Shown: in pieces, positions 4,606 to 17,867 of the stretch | Numbering within the stretch: the stretch's first letter is position 1 | How the letters are laid out: every line of letters starts with the position of its first letter | Virus record (IMG/VR): IMGVR_UViG_2531839479_000006 | Direction: 5' to 3' (one strand) | Source of the DNA: a virus | Taxonomy: Duplodnaviria > Heunggongvirae > Uroviricota > Caudoviricetes | DNA: 25,652 nt | Notes under the pieces: generated by a model | The model's input: the letters and a program-made list of their open reading frames with translations, nothing else | Database searches by the model: none | What the model was told of the DNA's origin: nothing | Translations under genes and position numbers: made by a program

Positions 4606-5151
4606 GTTGTTGCAGCGGGGTTGTCACTCAGGCGTATGGTCAACCTGACAACCCGGTGGACATTTGCGAGGAACGGAGAACCCCCGCCATACTTACCGCC
4701 GCGCCATTTCGCGGAGTGCCACAACCGGAAGCGCACGGTCGACGAAAATTTAACGACAGGCTATCTATGAACCAGCAACCTCGCCGTGCGCTTTCGCGTT
4801 ATGCTCTGACTTTTCAGAGAAATATCCTTTCAGTAAACTGTCAGTGCCGGATGCTCACCCGTGTCCGGCGCACACACTCCACCTCACCCGTGGAGAACTC
4901 CTTAATTACCAACCCTCAGGAGGGTGAATGTTAAAATCAACGCTTATTGCTAAATGCCTTTATCAAAATCGCATGGTAAGCAGCATTTCAATAGGCGAAT
5001 CTGCAGTTAAAAGTATTTTCGAAGAGTACTTTCGAAGAGTACTTTTCTGGGCGTGATTTTAATAAATGGAATACCAAATTACCGCCAGCAGTTTCAACGC
5101 GTATTCTGAAAGCAACTGAAAGAGCAAGTACAATTCGCGTTAACTATTTCA

Positions 5152-5559
5152 TTAAAGATTTGTGGGGTCTTTGATATCCACAGAGCCTAAAGTATGTGCA
5201 TATGGATGTGCTATTGTGCGCCCCTGTAAATTTGCATCGTTTTCTAAATCTTTTGATTTCAACAGAACATCAGCAAGACTCTGAATCATGCAGAGATAAT
5301 CAAAAACAGTTGCCGTTTCTGTTCTGACTGCTGAAATAACATGACCATTCAGGCAAACAGAAATTACCCGTTCATCAATATCGTTTTCCTGTTTTTGATT
5401 ATCAGAACAATATAGCCCTGAAAAAGCATTGCGCACATTACGAACCATATTATCGATGGTTTCTTTTTTGGTGTATGCCGGGTCAATTTTCACCAGACTA
5501 TCACCGAGTGTCGTTGCAGCAATTATCTGGATTTCTTTTGGTAAATCTTTAAATTCCAT
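5152..5559 (-). CDS. Hypothetical protein, 135 aa, leftward early operon
   Basis: Clean ORF with GAGG 7 nt upstream of the ATG. Same strand and tight spacing with the flanking leftward genes. No family recognised. Confidence 0.55.
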   Translation of the reverse strand: MEFKDLPKEIQIIAATTLGDSLVKIDPAYTKKETIDNMVRNVRNAFSGLYCSDNQKQENDIDERVISVCLNGHVISAVRTETATVFDYLCMIQSLADVLLKSKDLENDANLQGRTIAHPYAHTLGSVDIKDPTNL

Positions 5560-5581
5560 TATTAGCCTCGTTGGTTAACCA

Positions 5582-5800
5582 TTAACGTGGGTATGTAATC
5601 ATTCTGGCAATGCTTAATGCCGCTGCTTTTTCCAGATTGGTGATATCCTGCTCCAGAGCGGACAGATTTTCAGCCTGCTTAGCCCTGGCTTCATTGGCCC
5701 ATTTCAGGTCCTGCGCAGCCTTAATTTTCTGGTGCATCCACTCATAAAGTTCATCATCGGTATAGTCTGGCGCGATGATGACGGGTTCTCGTTTCTGCAT
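5582..5800 (-). CDS. Small protein, 72 aa, same size and position as YdfC of dicB operons
   Basis: ORF with GAGGA 6 nt upstream of the ATG. Identity inferred from gene order and size only. Confidence 0.55.
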   Translation of the reverse strand: MQKREPVIIAPDYTDDELYEWMHQKIKAAQDLKWANEARAKQAENLSALEQDITNLEKAAALSIARMITYPR

Positions 5801-5829
5801 ACTGATTCCTCGCGGTGCTGCTTCGCTTA

Positions 5830-5958
5830 TCAGCCGTTAGATTTTGCCAAACTGGAAAGCGCCTGTTTAAATTCGCTGAAGCTGAGGGCTTCTTCGCCTT
5901 CGGCAAGGCCTTCGAAGTATTCTTCGTAAGCCTTTTCCATGATTGTGTTGAAATCCAT
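5830..5958 (-). CDS. Small acidic protein, 42 aa, same size and position as YdfB; absent from the six-frame track
   Basis: Hand-translated MDFNTIMEKAYEEYFEGLAEGEEALSFSEFKQALSSLAKSNG with AGGTGA 5 nt upstream. It starts 2 nt after the stop of the upstream ORF. The track's 69-aa ORF 5754-5963 is a different frame with junk-like R/K/S composition. Confidence 0.5.
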   Translation of the reverse strand: MDFNTIMEKAYEEYFEGLAEGEEALSFSEFKQALSSLAKSNG

Positions 5959-5959
5959 A

Positions 5960-6115
5960 TCACTCACCTGAGTTTCTTTCCAGCCAGCGACGGGCACCAT
6001 TTTCGGTTTTAAACGTTTTGCTTTTGGTATGCGTCATCGCGGTGAACGTGCCGTCCTGATTGGGAAACACGCCGCACACCAGAGATTCGTTGTTGCCAAG
6101 ATCGATAGTATCCAT
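5960..6115 (-). CDS. Small protein, 51 aa, same size and position as YdfA
   Basis: Internal Met of the 78-aa ORF gives MDTIDLGNNESLVCGVFPNQDGTF..., 51 aa. It is the first gene after the candidate leftward promoter. Confidence 0.5.
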   Translation of the reverse strand: MDTIDLGNNESLVCGVFPNQDGTFTAMTHTKSKTFKTENGARRWLERNSGE

Positions 6116-6324
6116 GTTGACCTCATTTCCCCTTAACGCCGGGGTGGCGGAACAAAAACCTGCTGCATAGTTATTAAAGTTGAACCCTGCCGTCATGTTC
6201 TTACGCCTCGGGCTGGCTACTTAACCCCTGACCACTGCCTGGTAACTCGAAGTATTGCCCTGCATTCTGTAGGATGGGGTGAGGGAATGAATGAGGTTTA
6301 GAAAAACGAACTTTTCAGGTCAAT

Positions 6325-6340
6325 GTTTTTTTATCAAAAC
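6325..6340. promoter_or_regulatory. Candidate left operator (GTTTT-N6-AAAAC dyad) next to a leftward promoter
   Basis: GTTTTTTTATCAAAAC matches the dyad found twice between the cI-like and cro-like genes. On the minus strand it abuts a TTGACC -35 (6319-6324) and, 17 bp downstream, a weak TAAACC -10. Confidence 0.4.
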
Positions 6341-6407
6341 ATTTTAAGCAGGCAGCTGTTAAGCCATCACCACGATGGCATACAGTTAATCAAATAGATG
6401 AGGTTGG

Positions 6408-7046
6408 TTAAATATCTTGTTGAATTTTAAAGCATACGCCCAATATGCAAGATAGATCATCCAGCATAATTGAAGGGTAGCGAGGATTCGTGGGGACTAA
6501 AAGAATATCCGGCCCTTCTATCTCCAGTTTACGAATGACAGGTGTTGTGGTCCCTTTGGGTAAGGCAAGGACAATATTTCCTGGTTGTACGGTTCGATCG
6601 GGATCAACAAAAACTGTTGAACCATTTGGGATGGAAACTCCCCCACCAGATGTTGACATACTGTCACTCTCTAGAACAACTGCAAAGGTATTGACCGGGA
6701 TTTCTCCGACAAGCTGCACACAAGAGGTTATTGAGGAATTTTTCATATAATCACTCCAGCTTGCTGCCTGCTGAAGTGATAGTAGCGGAACCGTTTTTAT
6801 CGGCGGTAAAGATAGATCAAGCGAATCACCTGTATTTAACTCTCCTCCATTAAGAAGCCAATTTTCGTTTACTTTCAATATTTTTGCCAGTGAACTTATG
6901 TAACGCGAGGACGGCGCTCCTCCACCGTTCATCCATTGACTTACGGAGCCTTTTGATGCGCCAGTGCCATTGACAAGGTCTTTGCCTTTCAGGTTTAGCG
7001 CATGCATACGTTGGGTTATGCGTTCAGATATAGTTTGCTTGCTCAT
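6408..7046 (-). CDS. CI-like prophage repressor (N-terminal HTH, C-terminal LexA/S24 autopeptidase domain)
   Basis: The C-terminus follows lambda CI closely (ESDSM...VFVDPDRTVQPGNIV...LVPTNPRYPSI and an RKL lysine motif). N-terminal HTH. Divergent from the cro-like gene. Confidence 0.85.
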   Translation of the reverse strand: MSKQTISERITQRMHALNLKGKDLVNGTGASKGSVSQWMNGGGAPSSRYISSLAKILKVNENWLLNGGELNTGDSLDLSLPPIKTVPLLSLQQAASWSDYMKNSSITSCVQLVGEIPVNTFAVVLESDSMSTSGGGVSIPNGSTVFVDPDRTVQPGNIVLALPKGTTTPVIRKLEIEGPDILLVPTNPRYPSIMLDDLSCILGVCFKIQQDI

Positions 7047-7062
7047 GTTTTGATTTTAAAAC
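7047..7062. promoter_or_regulatory. Operator site 1 (GTTTTGATTTTAAAAC), abutting the cI start codon
   Basis: Dyad GTTTT-N6-AAAAC directly adjacent to the cI ATG. A TAAAAT -10-like hexamer on the minus strand lies 6 nt before the ATG, suggesting a leaderless cI transcript. Confidence 0.45.
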
Positions 7063-7092
7063 ACAGATGGTTTTGTTTCTTGACTTTCTTTG

Positions 7093-7108
7093 GTTTTGAT
7101 TATTAAAC
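7093..7108. promoter_or_regulatory. Operator site 2 (GTTTTGATTATTAAAC) overlapping the candidate rightward promoter
   Basis: Second copy of the dyad, overlapping the spacer and -10 region downstream of a TTGACT -35 (7079-7084), upstream of the cro-like gene. Confidence 0.4.
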
Positions 7109-7137
7109 TTTTGACGTTCAGTTTTATGGAGCGACTC

Positions 7138-7368
7138 ATGAAAAAATCAGAAGTATTAGGCTATTTTGGCGGAGTTGTTAAAACAGCCGCAGCTCTAGGA
7201 ACGTCAAAAACCACAGTCAGCATGTGGGGGGAAGAGGTTCCGTGGAAATGGGCGTTGCTAATTCAGGCAGTCACTGCCGGGGCGCTCAAATATGAGTTAC
7301 ACATACCGACGGTTGTCATTCCCGGTTCTGATCATAATCCGCCTTCTAACCAAGGGGGGGATTCATGA
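7138..7368 (+). CDS. Cro-like HTH regulator (YdaS-like)
   Basis: Small ORF divergent from the repressor. Start chosen at MKKSEVLG, which has GGAG 7 nt upstream. HTH-like segment VVKTAAALGTSKTTVSMW. Confidence 0.65.
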   Translation: MKKSEVLGYFGGVVKTAAALGTSKTTVSMWGEEVPWKWALLIQAVTAGALKYELHIPTVVIPGSDHNPPSNQGGDS

Positions 7369-9960: not shown

Positions 9961-10074
9961 TCCAAATCTGAATAATTAAATCCAGCACTGTAAATAAAAT
10001 TTAATCCTTAACCGGAGGGATTTCTGCACCCTCAGAACATCAGGAGGCCGCCCGAAAGGGCGGTGGAGATAATA

Positions 10075-10590
10075 ATGGAAATAACTAAAGAACGATTATT
10101 GGAAATAGCAAATCTTAGTGAAAGGGCATTAAGTGATGGGAGGATTATTTCTCCTGATGCTTATGAATCAGTTACAAGTATAGAAATAATAACGATGGCC
10201 AGGATGCTTCTTGCTCGCTTCAAAAAAGAATATAAAAAACAGGTAGATAGCAATGCTAATATATATGATATTTTGGACTGTTGGGGAGCTTGGGCTGTAG
10301 CTGGAAATAGTTCTATCAACTGGCAGCAAGTGGCTGATAAATATAAAGATGTTGTGCCTCATGGTAAAAAATTGCGTCGCCAGAGCAGCGATGATGAAGG
10401 GCGAGTGATTGATGAGTGGATATTGAGACTCAGACAATATAAAATAGATGAATATGAGTTAATTGTTGCCCACTTTGTAATAGGCGTTTCTTTGAGAAAG
10501 ATCGCAAAAAGAAAGAAATGTGCGGATGGGACTATTAGAAAAAAAATACAAGCAGCGATGGGAGTATTGGAGGGAGTATTAATGCTCTAA
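10075..10590 (+). CDS. Q-like regulator (antiterminator-Q family fold, C-terminal sigma-70 region-4-like HTH), AT-rich
   Basis: ATG with GGAG 6 nt upstream. Shares a W-G-x-W motif and a C-terminal basic HTH (SLRKIAKRKK...TIRKKI) with the prophage Q at 15304-15858 (WGRW ... MSKRKMAELL ... RNRI). Composition matches the AT-rich insertion. Confidence 0.55.
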   Translation: MEITKERLLEIANLSERALSDGRIISPDAYESVTSIEIITMARMLLARFKKEYKKQVDSNANIYDILDCWGAWAVAGNSSINWQQVADKYKDVVPHGKKLRRQSSDDEGRVIDEWILRLRQYKIDEYELIVAHFVIGVSLRKIAKRKKCADGTIRKKIQAAMGVLEGVLML

Positions 10591-10599
10591 CTGTTAGAG

Positions 10600-11820
10600 C
10601 TAAATAAAAATCTTCGCAAGAAATATTCCTGCTGCAATAGAACTTGGTAGCCAAGCCAAATACATAAATAACTTTATTGTATTATCACATTTGGTTTGGC
10701 TCTTTGATAGTTCATATAGAGCCTCATTAATGTCCTTCTTAAGGTCTTCTGGATAATTTTCATTGTTTTTTAGAAAAGGCATAAATGCTATATCTTTAGC
10801 ATGGTAAATATGTTTTAATTGTTTATCCTGATTGAGTAATACCATATATAAAATAAGTGAGCTTAACAATACACCTAATAAAACGAGTAACATTTCAGAT
10901 CTTGATGTTAGTTTTATAATCCCGAAGGATGCCAGTAAAGACACAGGGATTGATAATACTTTTGTCGTCAAATCAGTAATAAGTTTTGAGATTTTTTCAG
11001 CAAACTCTGCTTCAGACTTCGCAATTTCTTTTCGTGCCTTATGGAATGAAAAACCACTCATATACGTGGATAAATTATTTTCAAATAGCTTTACAAATTT
11101 ATCCCAATGGCAAATTAGGTTTTCAAAATCATATTTGTTATCGAGAATAAACTCCACTATGGTATTCCTGAAAATACCTGTTTTTTCTGCTTGATGGGGG
11201 ATTTGGGCGTTTTTTACATCTAAAAGACTCTTGATGATAGCATCATCAATGTCATTTATATTGAGCATCTTAGGTGTAATGCACGTTTCTAAAATAATAG
11301 ATGTTGATTTTGCGTCAGAATCTTTCACGAAAACTAAACGATAATTTGAAGATTCCGATTTTGTATCGTGAAAGTGCGCAATCTCAGCCAGGGAAGAAAT
11401 AATTGCACAAATTTTCTCGATTTTTATAATTTCGTCCGGTTTACTTGAATCAGACGGATGAAAATCCTCATCGATTATGTAATACTCTTTAGGAATTACA
11501 CCTTTCTTGAGTGAGTTTATACAAAGGAACTCTTGAATTGAGTTATAGAAACGTTCTGCTCCATTTTTAGGGGATATGTAAGTGTATGAGAATTTATCTC
11601 CAATTTTAATTGGGTGTGATTTTAAATCGTCTTCGTCAATGAACTCATTATTAATATCAACATCTTCAAAATAACCGTAGGCTTTATGTGAATTTACTAA
11701 CAAGTTTACCAAACGTTGATTGTTATTATTTATTTCAACAGTTGCAGAAAAAGAACGTCCGTCGAATTGGGGCTTCGATGATGCTCTATAAAAATCTACA
11801 ACCGTTGATAAATTAGCCAT
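10600..11820 (-). CDS. Membrane-anchored protein, ~406 aa: soluble N-terminal domain plus 2-3 C-terminal TM helices; candidate effector
   Basis: Long AT-rich ORF. C-terminal hydrophobic helices EMLLVLLGVLLSSLILYMVLL and LFMYLAWLPSSIAAGIFLAKIFI. Its ATG lies inside the last codons of the upstream gene (ATGGCTAA), indicating translational coupling. Confidence 0.8.
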   Translation of the reverse strand: MANLSTVVDFYRASSKPQFDGRSFSATVEINNNNQRLVNLLVNSHKAYGYFEDVDINNEFIDEDDLKSHPIKIGDKFSYTYISPKNGAERFYNSIQEFLCINSLKKGVIPKEYYIIDEDFHPSDSSKPDEIIKIEKICAIISSLAEIAHFHDTKSESSNYRLVFVKDSDAKSTSIILETCITPKMLNINDIDDAIIKSLLDVKNAQIPHQAEKTGIFRNTIVEFILDNKYDFENLICHWDKFVKLFENNLSTYMSGFSFHKARKEIAKSEAEFAEKISKLITDLTTKVLSIPVSLLASFGIIKLTSRSEMLLVLLGVLLSSLILYMVLLNQDKQLKHIYHAKDIAFMPFLKNNENYPEDLKKDINEALYELSKSQTKCDNTIKLFMYLAWLPSSIAAGIFLAKIFI

Positions 11821-12955
11821 TTTCTTTTCCACTATCCCTTATTTTTAAATTTTCTTTTACCACAGCGCTTAGTTTAGCCTTAAATTCAGCTGGTAAGTTT
11901 GTAAATGATAATCTTCCAGTTGTTTCATCGTACCACACATCATCATCAGCTGTCACTCCAAGGAGAGACTTGTCAAAATTAAATCCAATCTCATCAGTCT
12001 TAAAGGTGATGTTTTTAATGTCTTTCAACGCCCGTTTACTGATAACAAATTCAGTTGGGATTCTCACATTTTCACTATTTAAAAAAAGAATTAATTCGTG
12101 AGTGTAAGATTCTTTGGTAGACTCATCTAAATTTGTCATGTGACGTGCTGCAATTACTTCAATATCACTCAATCGGGCTGATAAATTTTTAGCTGCTTGT
12201 GTGTCTAAATATGCAATAACGTCATGTTTAAATCTATTGGCACATGCTTTAAGTTCTGGTTTTTGGTTAAAAAATTGTTTTGCGACAGTTGGTAGTTTTT
12301 TTGTGGCTTTTGCTGCTGCAAGTGATTTGTCGCATCCTATTGCTGCAATAAAATATGCTGATGTGGATTGACCCACTCCTTTACTTACGAAACTTAGATA
12401 ACTTAAGTCAATTTTTTCAGACTCATCAGCAGTTTTATATTGTTGGTAGAGATTGAAATTTATTCTTGCTGCTTGGTGTATTTTGGATAGATCCAAATGG
12501 ATCATTTCTTCAGGTTCGAGTTTGTTGCTGATAGTAACACCATTTTTCTTTTTAATCATTGCAATTAAAAAGAATTTATTGTTATTTACAATATAGTCAC
12601 AAAACACAATAAAACCACCAGATGACCAAGGTTCTTCTTTGGCTTTTTTTACAAGTTGCTTCATCACTTCAATAGAAAAAGGCACAAACTTTTCATTAAT
12701 GTTATCCTCTGACTGAGAATACTCTTCAAATATTGATGGCACAGGCCCTTGTTCTGTTTTCTCCTCTTTAAAAACGCCATAATGTGCAGAATTGCCTTTG
12801 GTTCCATATAAAGATGAAATGTCTTGAATAAGTTTTATAACAATTGGATTGGTTTTATCGAGAGGAGTGGATCTAAGCTGATACGGCTTAGAAAAATCAA
12901 AATCCTTTTTTGCTTCTTTAATTAGTTCATGAACGATAACTTGCTTAATTTCCAT
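11813..12955 (-). CDS. NdpA/YejK-family (nucleoid-associated protein, 37-kDa family) homologue, diverged, 380 aa
   Basis: Blocks match E. coli YejK as I recall it: IVHELIK vs ALHQLIK, SGGFIVFCDY vs DGGFVLFCHY, YLSFVSKGVGQ vs YLTFLKGRVGR, and the C-terminal GFNFD...LLG...D.TTGRLSF vs [30 protein letters not shown] upstream. Confidence 0.8.
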   Translation of the reverse strand: MEIKQVIVHELIKEAKKDFDFSKPYQLRSTPLDKTNPIVIKLIQDISSLYGTKGNSAHYGVFKEEKTEQGPVPSIFEEYSQSEDNINEKFVPFSIEVMKQLVKKAKEEPWSSGGFIVFCDYIVNNNKFFLIAMIKKKNGVTISNKLEPEEMIHLDLSKIHQAARINFNLYQQYKTADESEKIDLSYLSFVSKGVGQSTSAYFIAAIGCDKSLAAAKATKKLPTVAKQFFNQKPELKACANRFKHDVIAYLDTQAAKNLSARLSDIEVIAARHMTNLDESTKESYTHELILFLNSENVRIPTEFVISKRALKDIKNITFKTDEIGFNFDKSLLGVTADDDVWYDETTGRLSFTNLPAEFKAKLSAVVKENLKIRDSGKENG

Positions 12956-13045
12956 ATTGAAAATATCACCTATGTTATTGTTAGATCGTTTGTGATTTTT
13001 TTACCATCACAACAACGACACAAAATCATTAATGCGTACGCAAAA

Positions 13046-13074
13046 ATTTTGAATAATGAGTTAATCAATGTCAA
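13046..13074 (-). promoter_or_regulatory. Candidate promoter for the NdpA-like/membrane-protein operon
   Basis: Minus-strand TTGACA (13069-13074), a 17-bp spacer, then CAAAAT (13046-13051), about 90 nt upstream of the NdpA-like ATG. Pattern match only. Confidence 0.3.
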
Positions 13075-13230
13075 TAGTTAAACACACTACCGCTGTAGAG
13101 TTGTTGTCATTAAATTGCGTCATAAGTAGAATTGCTGCGGGTGCTTGAGGCTATCTGTCTCAGGCATGAACACCAAAAGGCAGATAGAGAAAAGCCCCAC
13201 CCGACTATAAATCGAAGTGAGGCCAGTCTT

Positions 13231-13437
13231 ATGTCTCGACAACTGAAGATTAGCCTCTTACGTGCCGAAAGGCAAGGAGAAGCAGGCTATGAAGCAGCAA
13301 AAGGCGATGTTAATCGCCCTGATCGTCATCTGTTTAACCGTCATAGTGACGGCACTGATAACGAGGAAAGACCTCTGCGAGGTACGAATCCGAACCGGCC
13401 AGACGGAGGTCGCTGTCTTCACAGCTTACGAACCTGA
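13231..13437 (+). CDS. mok: Mok-like overlapping reading frame of the hok locus
   Basis: ORF starting MSRQLK with GAAGTGAGG upstream, overlapping hok in another frame as in hok/sok loci. Confidence 0.45.
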   Translation: MSRQLKISLLRAERQGEAGYEAAKGDVNRPDRHLFNRHSDGTDNEERPLRGTNPNRPDGGRCLHSLRT

Positions 13438-13444
13438 GGAGTAA
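13289..13444 (+). CDS. hok: Hok/Gef-family type I toxin, 51 aa
   Basis: MKQQKAMLIALIVICLTVIVTALITRKDLCEVRIRTGQTEVAVFTAYEPEE is near-identical to the Hok/HokD family sequence as I recall it. AGGAGA 8 nt upstream. Confidence 0.85.
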   Translation: MKQQKAMLIALIVICLTVIVTALITRKDLCEVRIRTGQTEVAVFTAYEPEE

Positions 13445-17617: not shown

Positions 17618-17693
17618 GGCCCTTTAGCTCAGTGGTGAGAGCGAGCGACTCATAATCGCCAGGTCGCTGGTTCAAATCCAGCAAGGGCCACCA
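17618..17693 (+). tRNA. tRNA with CAU anticodon, Ile2-like (lysidine type)
   Basis: Cloverleaf folded by hand: acceptor GGCCCTT/AAGGGCC, D-arm GCTC/GAGC, anticodon loop CTCATAA, T-loop TTCAAAT, CCA encoded. Close to E. coli ileX as I recall it. Confidence 0.85.
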
Positions 17694-17700
17694 TCACATA

Positions 17701-17777
17701 CCGCCATTAGCTCATCAGGATAGAGCGCCAGCCTTCGAAGCTGGTTGCGCGGGGTTCGAGTCCTCGATGGCGGTCCA
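17701..17777 (+). tRNA. tRNA-Arg (anticodon UCG)
   Basis: Acceptor CCGCCAT/ATGGCGG (C1-G72), D-arm GCTC/GAGC, anticodon stem CCAGC/GCTGG with loop CTTCGAA, T-loop TTCGAGT, CCA encoded. Confidence 0.75.
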
Positions 17778-17790
17778 TTATCTGTACCCT

Positions 17791-17867
17791 GCGTTGTTAG
17801 CTCAGCCGGACAGAGCAATTGCCTTCTAAGCAATCGGTCACTGGTTCGAATCCAGTACAACGCGCCA
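17791..17867 (+). tRNA. tRNA-Arg (anticodon UCU)
   Basis: Acceptor GCGTTGT/ACAACGC, anticodon stem ATTGC/GCAAT with loop CTTCTAA, T-loop TTCGAAT, CCA encoded. Confidence 0.85.

What the first reader, a model, noticed from the sequence alone, without database searches (positions are those of the whole stretch)
10600..11820. Membrane-anchored partner protein with unrecognised N-terminal domain and C-terminal helices
About 300 aa of soluble domain that I cannot assign to any family, followed by two strongly hydrophobic helices at the extreme C-terminus. This architecture is typical of membrane-disrupting effectors. Its translational coupling implies fixed stoichiometry with the NdpA-like protein.
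Basis: partly seen in the sequence, partly recalled or inferred. Interest (0 to 1): 0.7.

Follow-up and report, generated by a model that had tools for sequence, protein, structure and literature searches.

The report
Prophage anti-phage membrane effector gene
The flagged gene encodes the membrane-anchored partner of a nucleoid-protein-based two-gene anti-phage system (DS-1 / type II PANGU kind). An E. coli prophage carries it as cargo. It is a divergent, unannotated member of a recently described kind, not something new in kind.

Summary
The ORF is real: window 10600-11820, minus strand, 406 aa from the ATG at 11820. It overlaps the stop codon of an upstream NA37/YejK-like gene (11813-12955) by 8 nt. 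Its first ~285 residues are soluble and match no Pfam family and no PDB fold. The C-terminus has three conserved hydrophobic helices (about 287-303, 310-330, 384-406), not two.

The pair is a distant homologue (27% and 22% identity) of DS-1, a YejK-domain two-gene system validated in E. coli (DefensePredictor, Science 2026). NCBIfam DS1_2/DS1_1 match at E 4e-30 and 6e-29, but below the curated cut-offs. The pair also has the architecture of type II PANGU (2026 preprint): a nucleoid-protein sensor plus a transmembrane effector, acting by abortive infection.

In all 71 related loci examined (23 genomes, 48 viral contigs), an NA37 gene lies directly upstream on the same strand. The cassette is a 32-33% GC island in a lambdoid prophage, between a Q antiterminator and sok/hokD. 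Sister prophages carry other sensor-plus-membrane-protein pairs in that slot.

How the effector acts is unknown, here and in the literature. Verdict: new member of a known kind, moderate interest.

The parts
10600..11820 (-). Target gene: 406-aa membrane-anchored partner (DS-1B-like / Pag2B-like); stop codon at 10600-10602
   Evidence: ORF. Start fixed by homologue alignment and RefSeq WP_001460783.1. NCBIfam NF053869 DS1_2_antiphage E 4.4e-30, 105 bits, below the 315-bit cut-off. PHROG 5023 7e-70. 27% identity to DS-1B over 162 aa. Family profile against DS-1B: E 5e-20 over residues 70-369.
11251..11820 (-). Residues 1-190: alpha/beta N-terminal domain with no known fold, net acidic, with conserved acidic clusters at residues 52-66 and 110-124
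10957..11250 (-). Residues 191-288: helical subdomain and long juxtamembrane helix (239-288) carrying the most conserved motif, NNLSTYMSGFSFHKARKE...K287
   Evidence: Secondary structure. Invariant columns N248 N249 Y253 S255 F257 F259 H260 K261 E270 S278 K279 K287. K287 is also invariant in the 45-sequence alignment.
10912..10962 (-). Hydrophobic helix 1 (residues ~287-303), weakly hydrophobic, with invariant P292 and conserved S294
   Evidence: KD 1.68; Hessa-scale sum +4.4. Helix 290-303 in the model. P292 invariant across 45 homologues.
10831..10893 (-). Hydrophobic helix 2 (residues ~310-330), the strongest TM segment; conserved Q331 at its end
   Evidence: KD 2.83; Hessa-scale sum -4.0. 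Helix 307-351.
10603..10671 (-). Hydrophobic helix 3 (residues ~384-406) at the extreme C-terminus, with conserved W390 and P392
   Evidence: KD 1.78; Hessa-scale sum +1.9. Helix 391-405. P392 nearly invariant.
11813..12955 (-). Upstream partner gene: 380-aa NA37/YejK-like nucleoid-associated protein (putative sensor), without the N-terminal zinc ribbon of DS-1A
   Evidence: Pfam PF04245 2e-51. NCBIfam YejK equivalog 139 bits against a 341-bit cut-off, so not the housekeeping yejK. DS1_1_antiphage 5.9e-29. 22% identity to DS-1A. YejK structure 9be2 at E 3e-14. pI 7.6.
11813..11820 (-). 8-nt overlap between the NA37 stop codon (TAA, 11815-11813) and the target start codon (ATG, 11820-11818)
   Evidence: Read directly from the sequence. 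Junctions in homologous genome loci range from -8 to +39 nt.
13046..13074 (-). Promoter-like site TTGACA-17-CAAAAT, about 90 nt upstream of the NA37 start; candidate own promoter of the cassette
   Evidence: Consensus scan, 10 of 12 matches. The scan found no more sites than in shuffled sequence, so this is a candidate only.
10063..10590 (+). Left flank of the cargo slot: Q-family antiterminator gene, convergent with the target (9 nt between stop codons), GC 0.37
   Evidence: PF06530 4.6e-30. GC content. Same arrangement in a second E. coli prophage with a 40%-identical pair.
13139..13444 (+). Right flank of the cargo slot: sok antisense RNA and hokD type I toxin gene
   Evidence: Rfam RF01794, 122 bits. 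ORF 13262-13444. RefSeq hokD.

Best explanation
The gene encodes the membrane effector of a two-gene, prophage-borne anti-phage system of the DS-1 / type II PANGU kind.

Proposed mechanism:
1. The upstream NA37/YejK-like protein, a dimeric DNA clamp by homology, sits on the host nucleoid in uninfected lysogens.
2. An infecting phage such as T4 degrades the host chromosome, and the clamp loses its substrate and is released.
3. The free clamp binds the acidic cytoplasmic N-terminal domain of this protein.
4. The signal passes through the conserved juxtamembrane helix and helical stalk to the three C-terminal membrane helices.
5. The infected cell is arrested or killed before phage progeny are made. 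Loss of the membrane barrier or membrane potential is my best guess for this last step.

Shown here: the gene, its architecture, its homology to DS-1, the obligate NA37 linkage, and its location as mobile-element cargo.

Taken from papers on homologues or analogues: defence activity, the requirement for both genes, the abortive phenotype, sensor relocation, nanomolar binding of the sensor to the N-domain, and escape through T4 denA mutations.

Inferred only: the sensor and effector roles in this particular pair, and the nature of the damage done at the membrane.
For: Homology to a validated system.
- NCBIfam DS1_2_antiphage matches at E 4.4e-30 and DS1_1_antiphage at E 5.9e-29.
- BLASTP against DS-1B gives 27% identity, E 1e-14; against DS-1A, 22%, E 9e-9.
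- The family profile aligns collinearly to DS-1B residues 70-369, E 5e-20.
- DS-1 (working id D390: WP_000355468.1 plus WP_000150292.1) gave -log EOP 7.6 on Bas1, 2.7 on Bas26 and 1.7 on Bas3 and T3.

Same architecture as type II PANGU.
- Type II PANGU is a YejK-like nucleoid protein plus a partner with an N-terminal acidic domain and a C-terminal TM domain.
- The preprint reports that both genes are required, neither is toxic alone, and the phenotype is abortive infection.
- The sensor leaves the nucleoid on T4 infection, and the N-domain binds the sensor with KD 19 nM.
- T4 escapes through denA mutations.

Obligate pairing.
- NA37 is directly upstream on the same strand in 23/23 genome loci and 48/48 IMG/VR loci.
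- Identities of the two proteins co-vary (r 0.93, n 17).

Mobile cargo behaviour.
- The cassette has 32-33% GC in a 48% GC prophage.
- It is present in only 4 of 5426 complete E. coli genomes.
- Homologous pairs sit between Q and the holin in another lambdoid prophage.
- Others sit between gpD and ogr in a P2-like prophage, and next to a TacA/GNAT toxin-antitoxin pair.
- In sister prophages the same Q-hokD slot holds another NA37 plus C-terminally TM-anchored pair. It can also hold a DUF6731 plus weakly RexB-like pair.

Protein features.
- Three conserved hydrophobic helices.
- Acidic soluble region with conserved acidic clusters.
- The only invariant residues across 45 distant homologues (besides the initiator Met) are K287 and P292 at the membrane boundary, which argues against an enzyme.
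Against: - Both proteins score far below the NCBIfam equivalog cut-offs (105 against 315 bits; 101 against 330 bits). PADLOC 2023 has no hit. This pair is therefore not an orthologue of the tested DS-1.
- The NA37 protein lacks DS-1A's zinc ribbon.
- The SGFSFHK motif, which is invariant in this subfamily, is absent from DS-1B.
- I could not compare the protein with Pag2B, because its sequence is not in the held text.
- The acidity of the N-domain is modest (net -10 over 285 residues, pI 5.3), so composition alone does not show DNA mimicry.
- In the alignment to YejK, one of its two basic pore patches (R173/R176/K177) is not conserved in the window NA37.
- No experiment on this locus exists, and no effector mechanism is known for any member.
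Confidence: 0.7

Rival explanations
1. Inverted roles, as in Kiwa. The membrane protein is the sensor or anchor: it detects envelope perturbation or holds the NA37 clamp at the membrane. The NA37 protein is the effector, which clamps incoming phage DNA and blocks its replication or transcription. The host cell need not die.
For: - The membrane protein has no catalytic or pore-toxin signature.
- NA37 proteins are non-specific DNA clamps (PMC11229321).
- Neither PANGU protein is toxic, alone or together, without phage.
- The preprint itself says the activation of Pag2B is unresolved.
Against: - Type II PANGU shows growth arrest at high multiplicity of infection.
- T4 escapes it through denA mutations, which stop host-genome degradation. 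That points to sensing at the nucleoid, not at the envelope.
- The sensor moves off the nucleoid on infection.
- PADLOC finds no similarity to KwaA or KwaB.
Confidence: 0.12
2. A Rex-like prophage module whose main role lies in prophage biology, for example exclusion of superinfecting DNA at entry or biasing of the lysis-lysogeny switch. General abortive defence would be a side effect.
For: - The cassette sits in a lambdoid prophage beside regulatory genes.
- The same slot in sister prophages holds a DUF6731 plus weakly RexB-like pair (PADLOC RexB, E 0.0015).
- Separate papers report that YejK and lambda RexA each resemble RdgC and CENP-N/Chl4-type proteins.
- RexA also acts on the lambda switch independently of RexB.
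Against: - There is no sequence similarity to RexA or RexB.
- Homologous pairs also occur outside lambdoid prophages: in a P2-like prophage, in a chromosomal islet, and in Pseudomonas and Vibrio genomes.
- DS-1 and PANGU protect when expressed from plasmids, without any prophage.
Confidence: 0.08
3. Not a defence system: a nucleoid-membrane tether, or a post-segregational addiction module that stabilises the prophage.
For: - The pairing of a DNA-binding protein with a membrane anchor would suit a tether.
- The cassette lies next to the hok/sok addiction locus.
Against: - It is rare and patchy (4 of 5426 E. coli genomes).
- It has a low-GC cargo signature and sits in a slot with swappable cargo.
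- A homologue is validated in defence.
- The PANGU proteins are not toxic individually, which argues against a toxin-antitoxin pair.
Confidence: 0.04

Closest known systems
DS-1 (DefensePredictor working id D390; WP_000355468.1 + WP_000150292.1; NCBIfam NF053868/NF053869)
   Same: - Two genes in the same order: NA37/YejK-domain protein, then a ~400-aa partner with a soluble N-terminal part and C-terminal hydrophobic helices.
- Detectable homology in both proteins.
- Both come from E. coli.
- DS-1 is experimentally protective.
   Different: - Only 27% and 22% identity, with scores at about one third of the NCBIfam equivalog cut-offs.
- The window NA37 lacks the N-terminal CxxC...CxxC zinc ribbon of DS-1A.
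- DS-1B lacks the SGFSFHK juxtamembrane motif that is invariant in the window's subfamily.
Type II PANGU (Pag2A + Pag2B; bioRxiv 10.64898/2026.04.06.716658)
   Same: - Bicistronic: a YejK-like nucleoid protein plus a partner with an N-terminal acidic domain and a C-terminal TM domain.
- Found on mobile elements and in defence neighbourhoods.
- The published model (sensor released from the degraded nucleoid binds the effector's N-domain; abortive infection) fits the anatomy seen here.
   Different: - Homology to Pag2B could not be tested, because no sequence is held.
- The N-domain here is only moderately acidic.
- This pair has not been tested.
Bacteriophage lambda RexA/RexB exclusion system
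   Same: - Prophage-encoded pair: a non-specific DNA-binding soluble protein plus an inner-membrane partner, excluding T4-type phages.
- The two proteins interact.
- Both YejK and RexA are reported to resemble RdgC and CENP-N/Chl4-type proteins.
- A weakly RexB-like cassette occupies the same slot in sister prophages.
   Different: - No sequence similarity.
- RexB is a 16-kDa protein with four TM helices and no large cytoplasmic domain.
- Here the membrane protein carries a 285-residue soluble domain and three hydrophobic helices.
- The fold link is taken from two papers and was not tested here.
Kiwa (KwaA membrane protein + KwaB DNA-binding protein)
   Same: A two-gene system that pairs a membrane protein with a DNA-binding protein. 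This comparison rests on my own knowledge of the literature, not on a test here.
   Different: - No PADLOC hit to either Kiwa protein.
- The gene order, the sizes and the proposed direction of signalling all differ.
CorA/Mrs2 magnesium channels (architecture only)
   Same: - Cytoplasmic N-terminal domain, a long stalk helix running into the membrane, and C-terminal TM helices.
   Different: - The hits have 7-9 A rmsd and sit among hundreds of generic helical bundles.
- The N-domain alone does not retrieve CorA.
- There is no Pfam CorA hit and no GMN motif.
- This is a resemblance in layout only.

Membership tests
DS-1 (NCBIfam equivalogs NF053869 / NF053868) | Partner protein scores at or above the curated cut-off of NF053869 (315 bits) | tested here: not met
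   105 bits, E 4.4e-30, covering residues 93-395. It is a homologue, not an equivalog.
DS-1 (NCBIfam equivalogs NF053869 / NF053868) | NA37 protein scores at or above the curated cut-off of NF053868 (330 bits) | tested here: not met
   101 bits, E 5.9e-29.
DS-1 (NCBIfam equivalogs NF053869 / NF053868) | Operon of an NA37-domain gene followed by a ~400-aa partner gene | tested here: met
   380-aa NA37 protein, then the 406-aa partner, with an 8-nt overlap. DS-1 is 391 aa plus 404 aa.
DS-1 (NCBIfam equivalogs NF053869 / NF053868) | N-terminal zinc ribbon on the NA37 protein, as in DS-1A (whether this is essential is not known) | tested here: not met
   The NA37 domain starts at residue 7 of the window protein. 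DS-1A has CLECG...CDKCG in residues 5-23, with the NA37 domain at 42-382.
DS-1 (NCBIfam equivalogs NF053869 / NF053868) | Protects E. coli against phage | not testable with these tools
   Needs cloning and plaque assays. It has been shown only for DS-1 itself.
Type II PANGU | Two-gene operon that includes a YejK-like nucleoid-associated protein | tested here: met
   PF04245 at 2e-51. YejK structure 9be2 at E 3e-14. NA37 is adjacent in 71 of 71 related loci.
Type II PANGU | Partner has a C-terminal transmembrane domain | tested here: met
   Three conserved hydrophobic helices at 287-303, 310-330 and 384-406.
Type II PANGU | Partner has an N-terminal acidic 'DNA-mimicking' domain | tested here: inconclusive
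   Net charge -10 and pI 5.3 over residues 1-285. The region is net acidic in all 24 aligned sequences. Conserved acidic clusters lie at 52-66 and 110-124. The acidity is modest, and no surface electrostatics could be computed.
Type II PANGU | Sequence homology to Pag2B / the authors' Cluster 2 profile | not testable with these tools
   Neither the Pag2B sequence nor the supplementary table is held.
Type II PANGU | N-domain binds the nucleoid protein; both genes required; abortive infection; triggered by host-genome degradation | not testable with these tools
   These are experimental criteria.
Lambda RexAB | Homology to RexA and RexB | tested here: not met
   No PADLOC family at E up to 1 for either protein.
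Kiwa | Homology to KwaA and KwaB (DUF4868) | tested here: not met
   No PADLOC or Pfam hit.
CorA/MIT channels | CorA Pfam domain, CorA-type N-terminal fold, GMN motif between the last two TM helices | tested here: not met
Housekeeping YejK partner / housekeeping membrane protein | The NA37 protein is the yejK orthologue; the locus is conserved in the core genome | tested here: not met
   YejK equivalog scores 139 bits against a 341-bit cut-off. The cassette is present in 4 of 5426 E. coli genomes, inside a prophage.

The most novel reading that the evidence does not exclude
The NA37-plus-membrane-partner systems (this pair, DS-1, type II PANGU, and the unrelated NA37 plus 477-aa TM pair in the same prophage slot) may form one ancient class with lambda RexAB-like cassettes. 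The shared scheme would be an RdgC/CENP-N-like DNA clamp that reports loss or damage of host DNA to a dedicated inner-membrane protein. In that case the fold-orphan N-terminal domain found here would be a new clamp-receptor module that gates a three-helix membrane device. Solving it would explain how Rex-type exclusion works, a question open since the 1950s.
Probability: 0.2. Interest if true: 0.65.

Novelty: new member of a known kind. Interest (0 to 1): 0.42.

Why it matters
- **Annotation.** RefSeq calls this protein 'hypothetical'. PADLOC (2023) and the NCBIfam equivalog cut-offs both miss it. Recognising it extends the newly described nucleoid-protein-based defence class to a divergent subfamily. 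That subfamily has about 1,000 clusters at 50% identity in public data. It is carried by lambdoid and P2-like prophages of Enterobacterales and by Pseudomonas and Vibrio genomes.
- **Open mechanism.** The effector half of these systems has no known mechanism. Its soluble domain has no relative among solved structures. Its best-conserved residues lie at the junction between the stalk helix and the first membrane helix. These give concrete targets for mutagenesis.
- **Discovery handle.** The slot between Q and hokD holds interchangeable pairs of a soluble sensor and a membrane protein. It is therefore a practical place to look for further systems of this logic.

Tried and rejected
- **Apparent NA37-partner gene fusions.** My script flagged L004 and L024 as possible fusions. 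Translation shows a stop codon between the two genes in both, so there is no fusion.
- **Homology to the other NA37-linked TM partner.** I compared the target with the 477-aa partner in the same slot of strain 13E0767. BLASTP gave E 0.07 and hhalign gave probability 0.6%, so it is a distinct family.
- **Enzymatic effector.** No catalytic motif survives in 45 distant homologues. The AHFHD motif is subfamily-specific.
- **Solved relatives.** The family profile found nothing in the PDB at E below 0.2.
- **AlphaFold-database fold search.** The library was not available. It is therefore untested whether the N-domain occurs in other architectures, such as the C-terminal domain of Pag1B.
- **Sequenced phages.** Only one full-length hit (Klebsiella phage P7641, 37% identity) among 50,697 phage records. 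IMG/VR gave 48 loci.
- **Lookups that returned nothing.** The DefensePredictor tables, as held, do not list the window's own accession numbers. A phrase search across table cells failed.
Full report
**1. What is in the sequence**

The finding's coordinates hold a real gene on the minus strand. The mechanical ORF runs 10600-11832 from a GTG. All 23 aligned homologues begin at the Met encoded by the ATG at 11820, and RefSeq uses the same start (WP_001460783.1, 406 aa, 'hypothetical protein').

The ATG (11820-11818) lies two bases before the TAA stop (11815-11813) of the upstream gene, an 8-nt overlap. That upstream gene (11813-12955, 380 aa) is a clear NA37/YejK-family protein (Pfam PF04245, E 2e-51). 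It is not the housekeeping yejK: the YejK equivalog scores 139 bits against a cut-off of 341.

Both genes lie in a 32-33% GC island. The window as a whole is 48% GC.

**2. Checking the observation**

The soluble part has no hydrophobic segment. The highest Kyte-Doolittle 19-residue mean in residues 1-270 is 1.24.

The C-terminal quarter has three hydrophobic helices, not two.
- About 287-303 is weak (summed Hessa-scale value +4.4).
- About 310-330 is strong (-4.0; KD 2.83).
- About 384-406 is moderate (+1.9).
- The first two form a hairpin with a seven-residue loop.
- A charged ~55-residue helical hairpin separates the second from the third. Only the third is at the extreme C-terminus.

All three segments persist in the family-mean hydropathy of 45 homologues at 20-42% identity.

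AlphaFold2 with a 24-sequence alignment gives a confident model (pLDDT 86). Its elements are:
- an alpha/beta domain (residues 1-190);
- a small helical subdomain (194-237);
- a long helix (239-288) running into the first membrane helix;
- helices 307-351 and 358-388, which extend the membrane helices into a cytoplasmic stalk.

The likely topology is N-terminus in the cytoplasm and C-terminus outside. This is inferred. No dedicated topology predictor was available.

**3. The soluble domain is unassigned**

There is no Pfam or PADLOC hit. A profile of the family finds no solved structure (best E 0.2).

**4. What it is related to**

NCBIfam gives the lead. The target matches DS1_2_antiphage (E 4.4e-30), and the NA37 protein matches DS1_1_antiphage, 'nucleoid-associated anti-phage protein' (E 5.9e-29). 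Both score at about a third of the curated cut-offs.

DS-1 is system D390 of the DefensePredictor study (PMC13092281). It comprises WP_000355468.1 (391 aa, zinc ribbon plus YejK domain) followed by WP_000150292.1 (404 aa, hypothetical). In the screen table DS-1 gave -log EOP 7.6 on Bas1, 2.7 on Bas26, 1.7 on Bas3 and T3, and about 1 on T5 and T7.

Pairwise, the window proteins are 27% (E 1e-14) and 22% (E 9e-9) identical to the DS-1 proteins. The family profile aligns collinearly with DS-1B residues 70-369, from the alpha/beta domain through the membrane helices (E 5e-20).

A 2026 preprint (10.64898/2026.04.06.716658) defines 'PANGU' systems. In type II, a YejK-like protein (Pag2A) is paired with a transmembrane effector (Pag2B). 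Pag2B has an N-terminal acidic 'DNA-mimicking' domain and a C-terminal TM domain. The preprint reports the following:
- both genes are needed for defence, and neither is toxic alone;
- the phenotype is abortive infection;
- Pag2A-GFP leaves the nucleoid on T4 infection;
- the isolated N-domain binds Pag2A with KD 19 nM;
- T4 escapes through mutations in denA (endonuclease II).

The authors state that how Pag2A activates Pag2B is undetermined. The Pag2B sequence is not in the held text. Membership in their Cluster 2 therefore could not be tested directly.

**5. Family, linkage and context**

An exhaustive profile search found 1,029 clusters at 50% identity with E up to 1e-3, and 207 with E up to 1e-30. 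Among the 150 best hits listed, most are about 400-430 aa and match over nearly the full length; the shorter ones are partial sequences.

In 23 of 23 genome loci an NA37 gene lies directly upstream on the same strand. These loci come from Enterobacterales, Pseudomonas, Vibrio and one candidate-phylum MAG. The junctions range from -8 to +39 nt. Two apparent fusions flagged by my script were artefacts. The same holds in 48 of 48 IMG/VR viral contigs; one of these has a split NA37 match. Identities of the two proteins co-vary (r 0.93, n 17), as expected for a co-inherited pair.

The window is a lambdoid prophage next to potC/potD, 100% identical over the 2.8-kb cassette stretch compared (window 10400-13200) to E. 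coli strain 602354. The cassette occurs in only 4 of 5,426 complete E. coli genomes. It lies antisense between a Q-family antiterminator (10063-10590) and sok/hokD (13139-13444).

Sister prophages with the same flanks carry other low-GC two-gene cargo in that slot:
- a very divergent NA37 (352 aa) plus an unrelated 477-aa protein that also ends in TM helices;
- a DUF6731 protein plus a 159-aa multi-TM protein with a weak RexB match.

Homologous pairs elsewhere sit in three kinds of place:
- between Q and the holin of another lambdoid prophage;
- between gpD and ogr of a P2-like prophage;
- beside a TacA/GNAT toxin-antitoxin pair in a chromosomal islet.

This is the behaviour of defence cargo.

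**6. How it most likely works**

By homology and architecture, the NA37 protein is the sensor and this protein is the membrane effector.

YejK is a dimeric clamp with a 30 A basic pore for double-stranded DNA (PMC11229321). The window NA37 is more basic than YejK (pI 7.6). The target's soluble region is acidic in all 24 aligned sequences, with net charge -4 to -20. It has conserved acidic clusters at residues 52-66 and 110-124. That is compatible with binding in or near the clamp's DNA site. The acidity is modest, so composition alone does not show DNA mimicry.

Across 45 distant homologues the only invariant residues besides the initiator Met are K287 and P292. The nearly invariant ones include F257, F259, S294, Q331 and P392. 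Conservation therefore peaks at the stalk-membrane junction, not in any catalytic-looking site. This fits a device whose membrane helices are switched by a binding event in the cytoplasm.

Which steps are shown here, taken from papers, or only inferred is listed under Best explanation. I put the class-level assignment at about 0.7. I put membrane depolarisation or permeabilisation specifically at about 0.45.

**7. Rivals**

- **Kiwa-like inversion** (0.12). The membrane protein would be the sensor or anchor and the clamp the effector. The sequence does not exclude this. The denA escape mutants and the growth arrest reported for type II PANGU argue against it.
- **Rex-like prophage-centred role** (0.08). 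This gains some colour from the shared slot. Separate papers also report that YejK and RexA each resemble RdgC and CENP-N/Chl4-type proteins. But there is no sequence similarity to Rex proteins, and the family occurs outside lambdoid phages.
- **Tether or addiction module** (0.04). This is unlikely given the rarity, the cargo behaviour and the non-toxicity reported for PANGU proteins.

**8. Verdict**

The interpretation as a membrane effector coupled to the NA37 protein is supported at the level of system class. 'Membrane-disrupting' and 'fixed stoichiometry' go beyond the evidence.

This is a divergent, unannotated member of a kind described in 2025-2026, not a new kind. The remaining interest lies in three things: the fold-orphan receptor domain, the unknown effector mechanism, and the cargo slot that collects pairs of a soluble sensor and a membrane partner.

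Noticed in passing
window 10591-13138 (slot between Q gene 10063-10590 and sok/hokD 13139-13444); L035:5585-8048; L033:5566-6975: The slot between the Q-family antiterminator and hokD is a cargo hotspot. Sister E. coli prophages carry different antisense, low-GC (0.35-0.36) two-gene cassettes there. One is a very divergent NA37 (352 aa) plus an unrelated 477-aa protein with C-terminal TM helices. The other is a DUF6731 protein plus a 159-aa multi-TM protein with a weak PADLOC RexB hit (E 0.0015)..
   Followed up: partly
window 13139-13444 (+): Complete hok/sok type I toxin-antitoxin locus immediately beside the cassette: Rfam sok at 122 bits, and a hokD ORF of 60 aa at 13262-13444.
   Followed up: partly
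window 10063-10590 (+): The Q-family antiterminator gene (PF06530, 4.6e-30) has only 37% GC. It occurs at 80% coverage or more in 54 of 5,426 complete E. coli genomes. It may therefore be mosaic cargo itself, or may have been acquired together with the downstream slot. The prophage also has a second candidate late regulator (DUF1133) further downstream in the RefSeq annotation.
   Followed up: partly
window 11816-12955 (-), residues ~186-198 of the NA37 protein: In the phmmer alignment to E. coli YejK (9be2), the YejK pore residues R173/R176/K177, which were shown by mutagenesis to matter for DNA binding, align to G/Q/S in the window protein. The second basic patch (R276/R280/K284) has K307/K311/K314 nearby. 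The defence-type NA37 is also near-neutral (pI 7.6), unlike acidic YejK.
   Followed up: no
window 17618-17864 (+): Three tandem tRNA genes (RefSeq: Ile, Arg, Arg) lie between a DNA methyltransferase gene and the holin/lysis genes of the prophage.
   Followed up: no
window 6408-7046 (-): The window has an intact 212-aa CI/LexA-like repressor ORF (HTH plus S24 peptidase-like C-terminus). RefSeq for the near-identical strain annotates only a 112-aa 'LexA family protein' there, plus a frameshifted Cro/CI gene next to it. The immunity region may be partly decayed or mis-annotated.
   Followed up: no
L011 (JAUSNP010000006.1, 'Candidatus Moraniibacteriota' MAG), 4897-7176: A full NA37 plus partner pair (40% and 31% identity) sits on a 330-kb contig assigned to a candidate-phyla-radiation bacterium. 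All other loci are from Gammaproteobacteria. This could be real inter-phylum transfer or a binning error.
   Followed up: no
window 10582-10598: A short inverted repeat, GCTCTAAC-AG-TTAGAGC, lies across the 9-nt gap between the convergent stop codons of the Q gene and the target gene. It may be a shared bidirectional terminator hairpin. It is not GC-rich, and the terminator scan did not call it.
   Followed up: no
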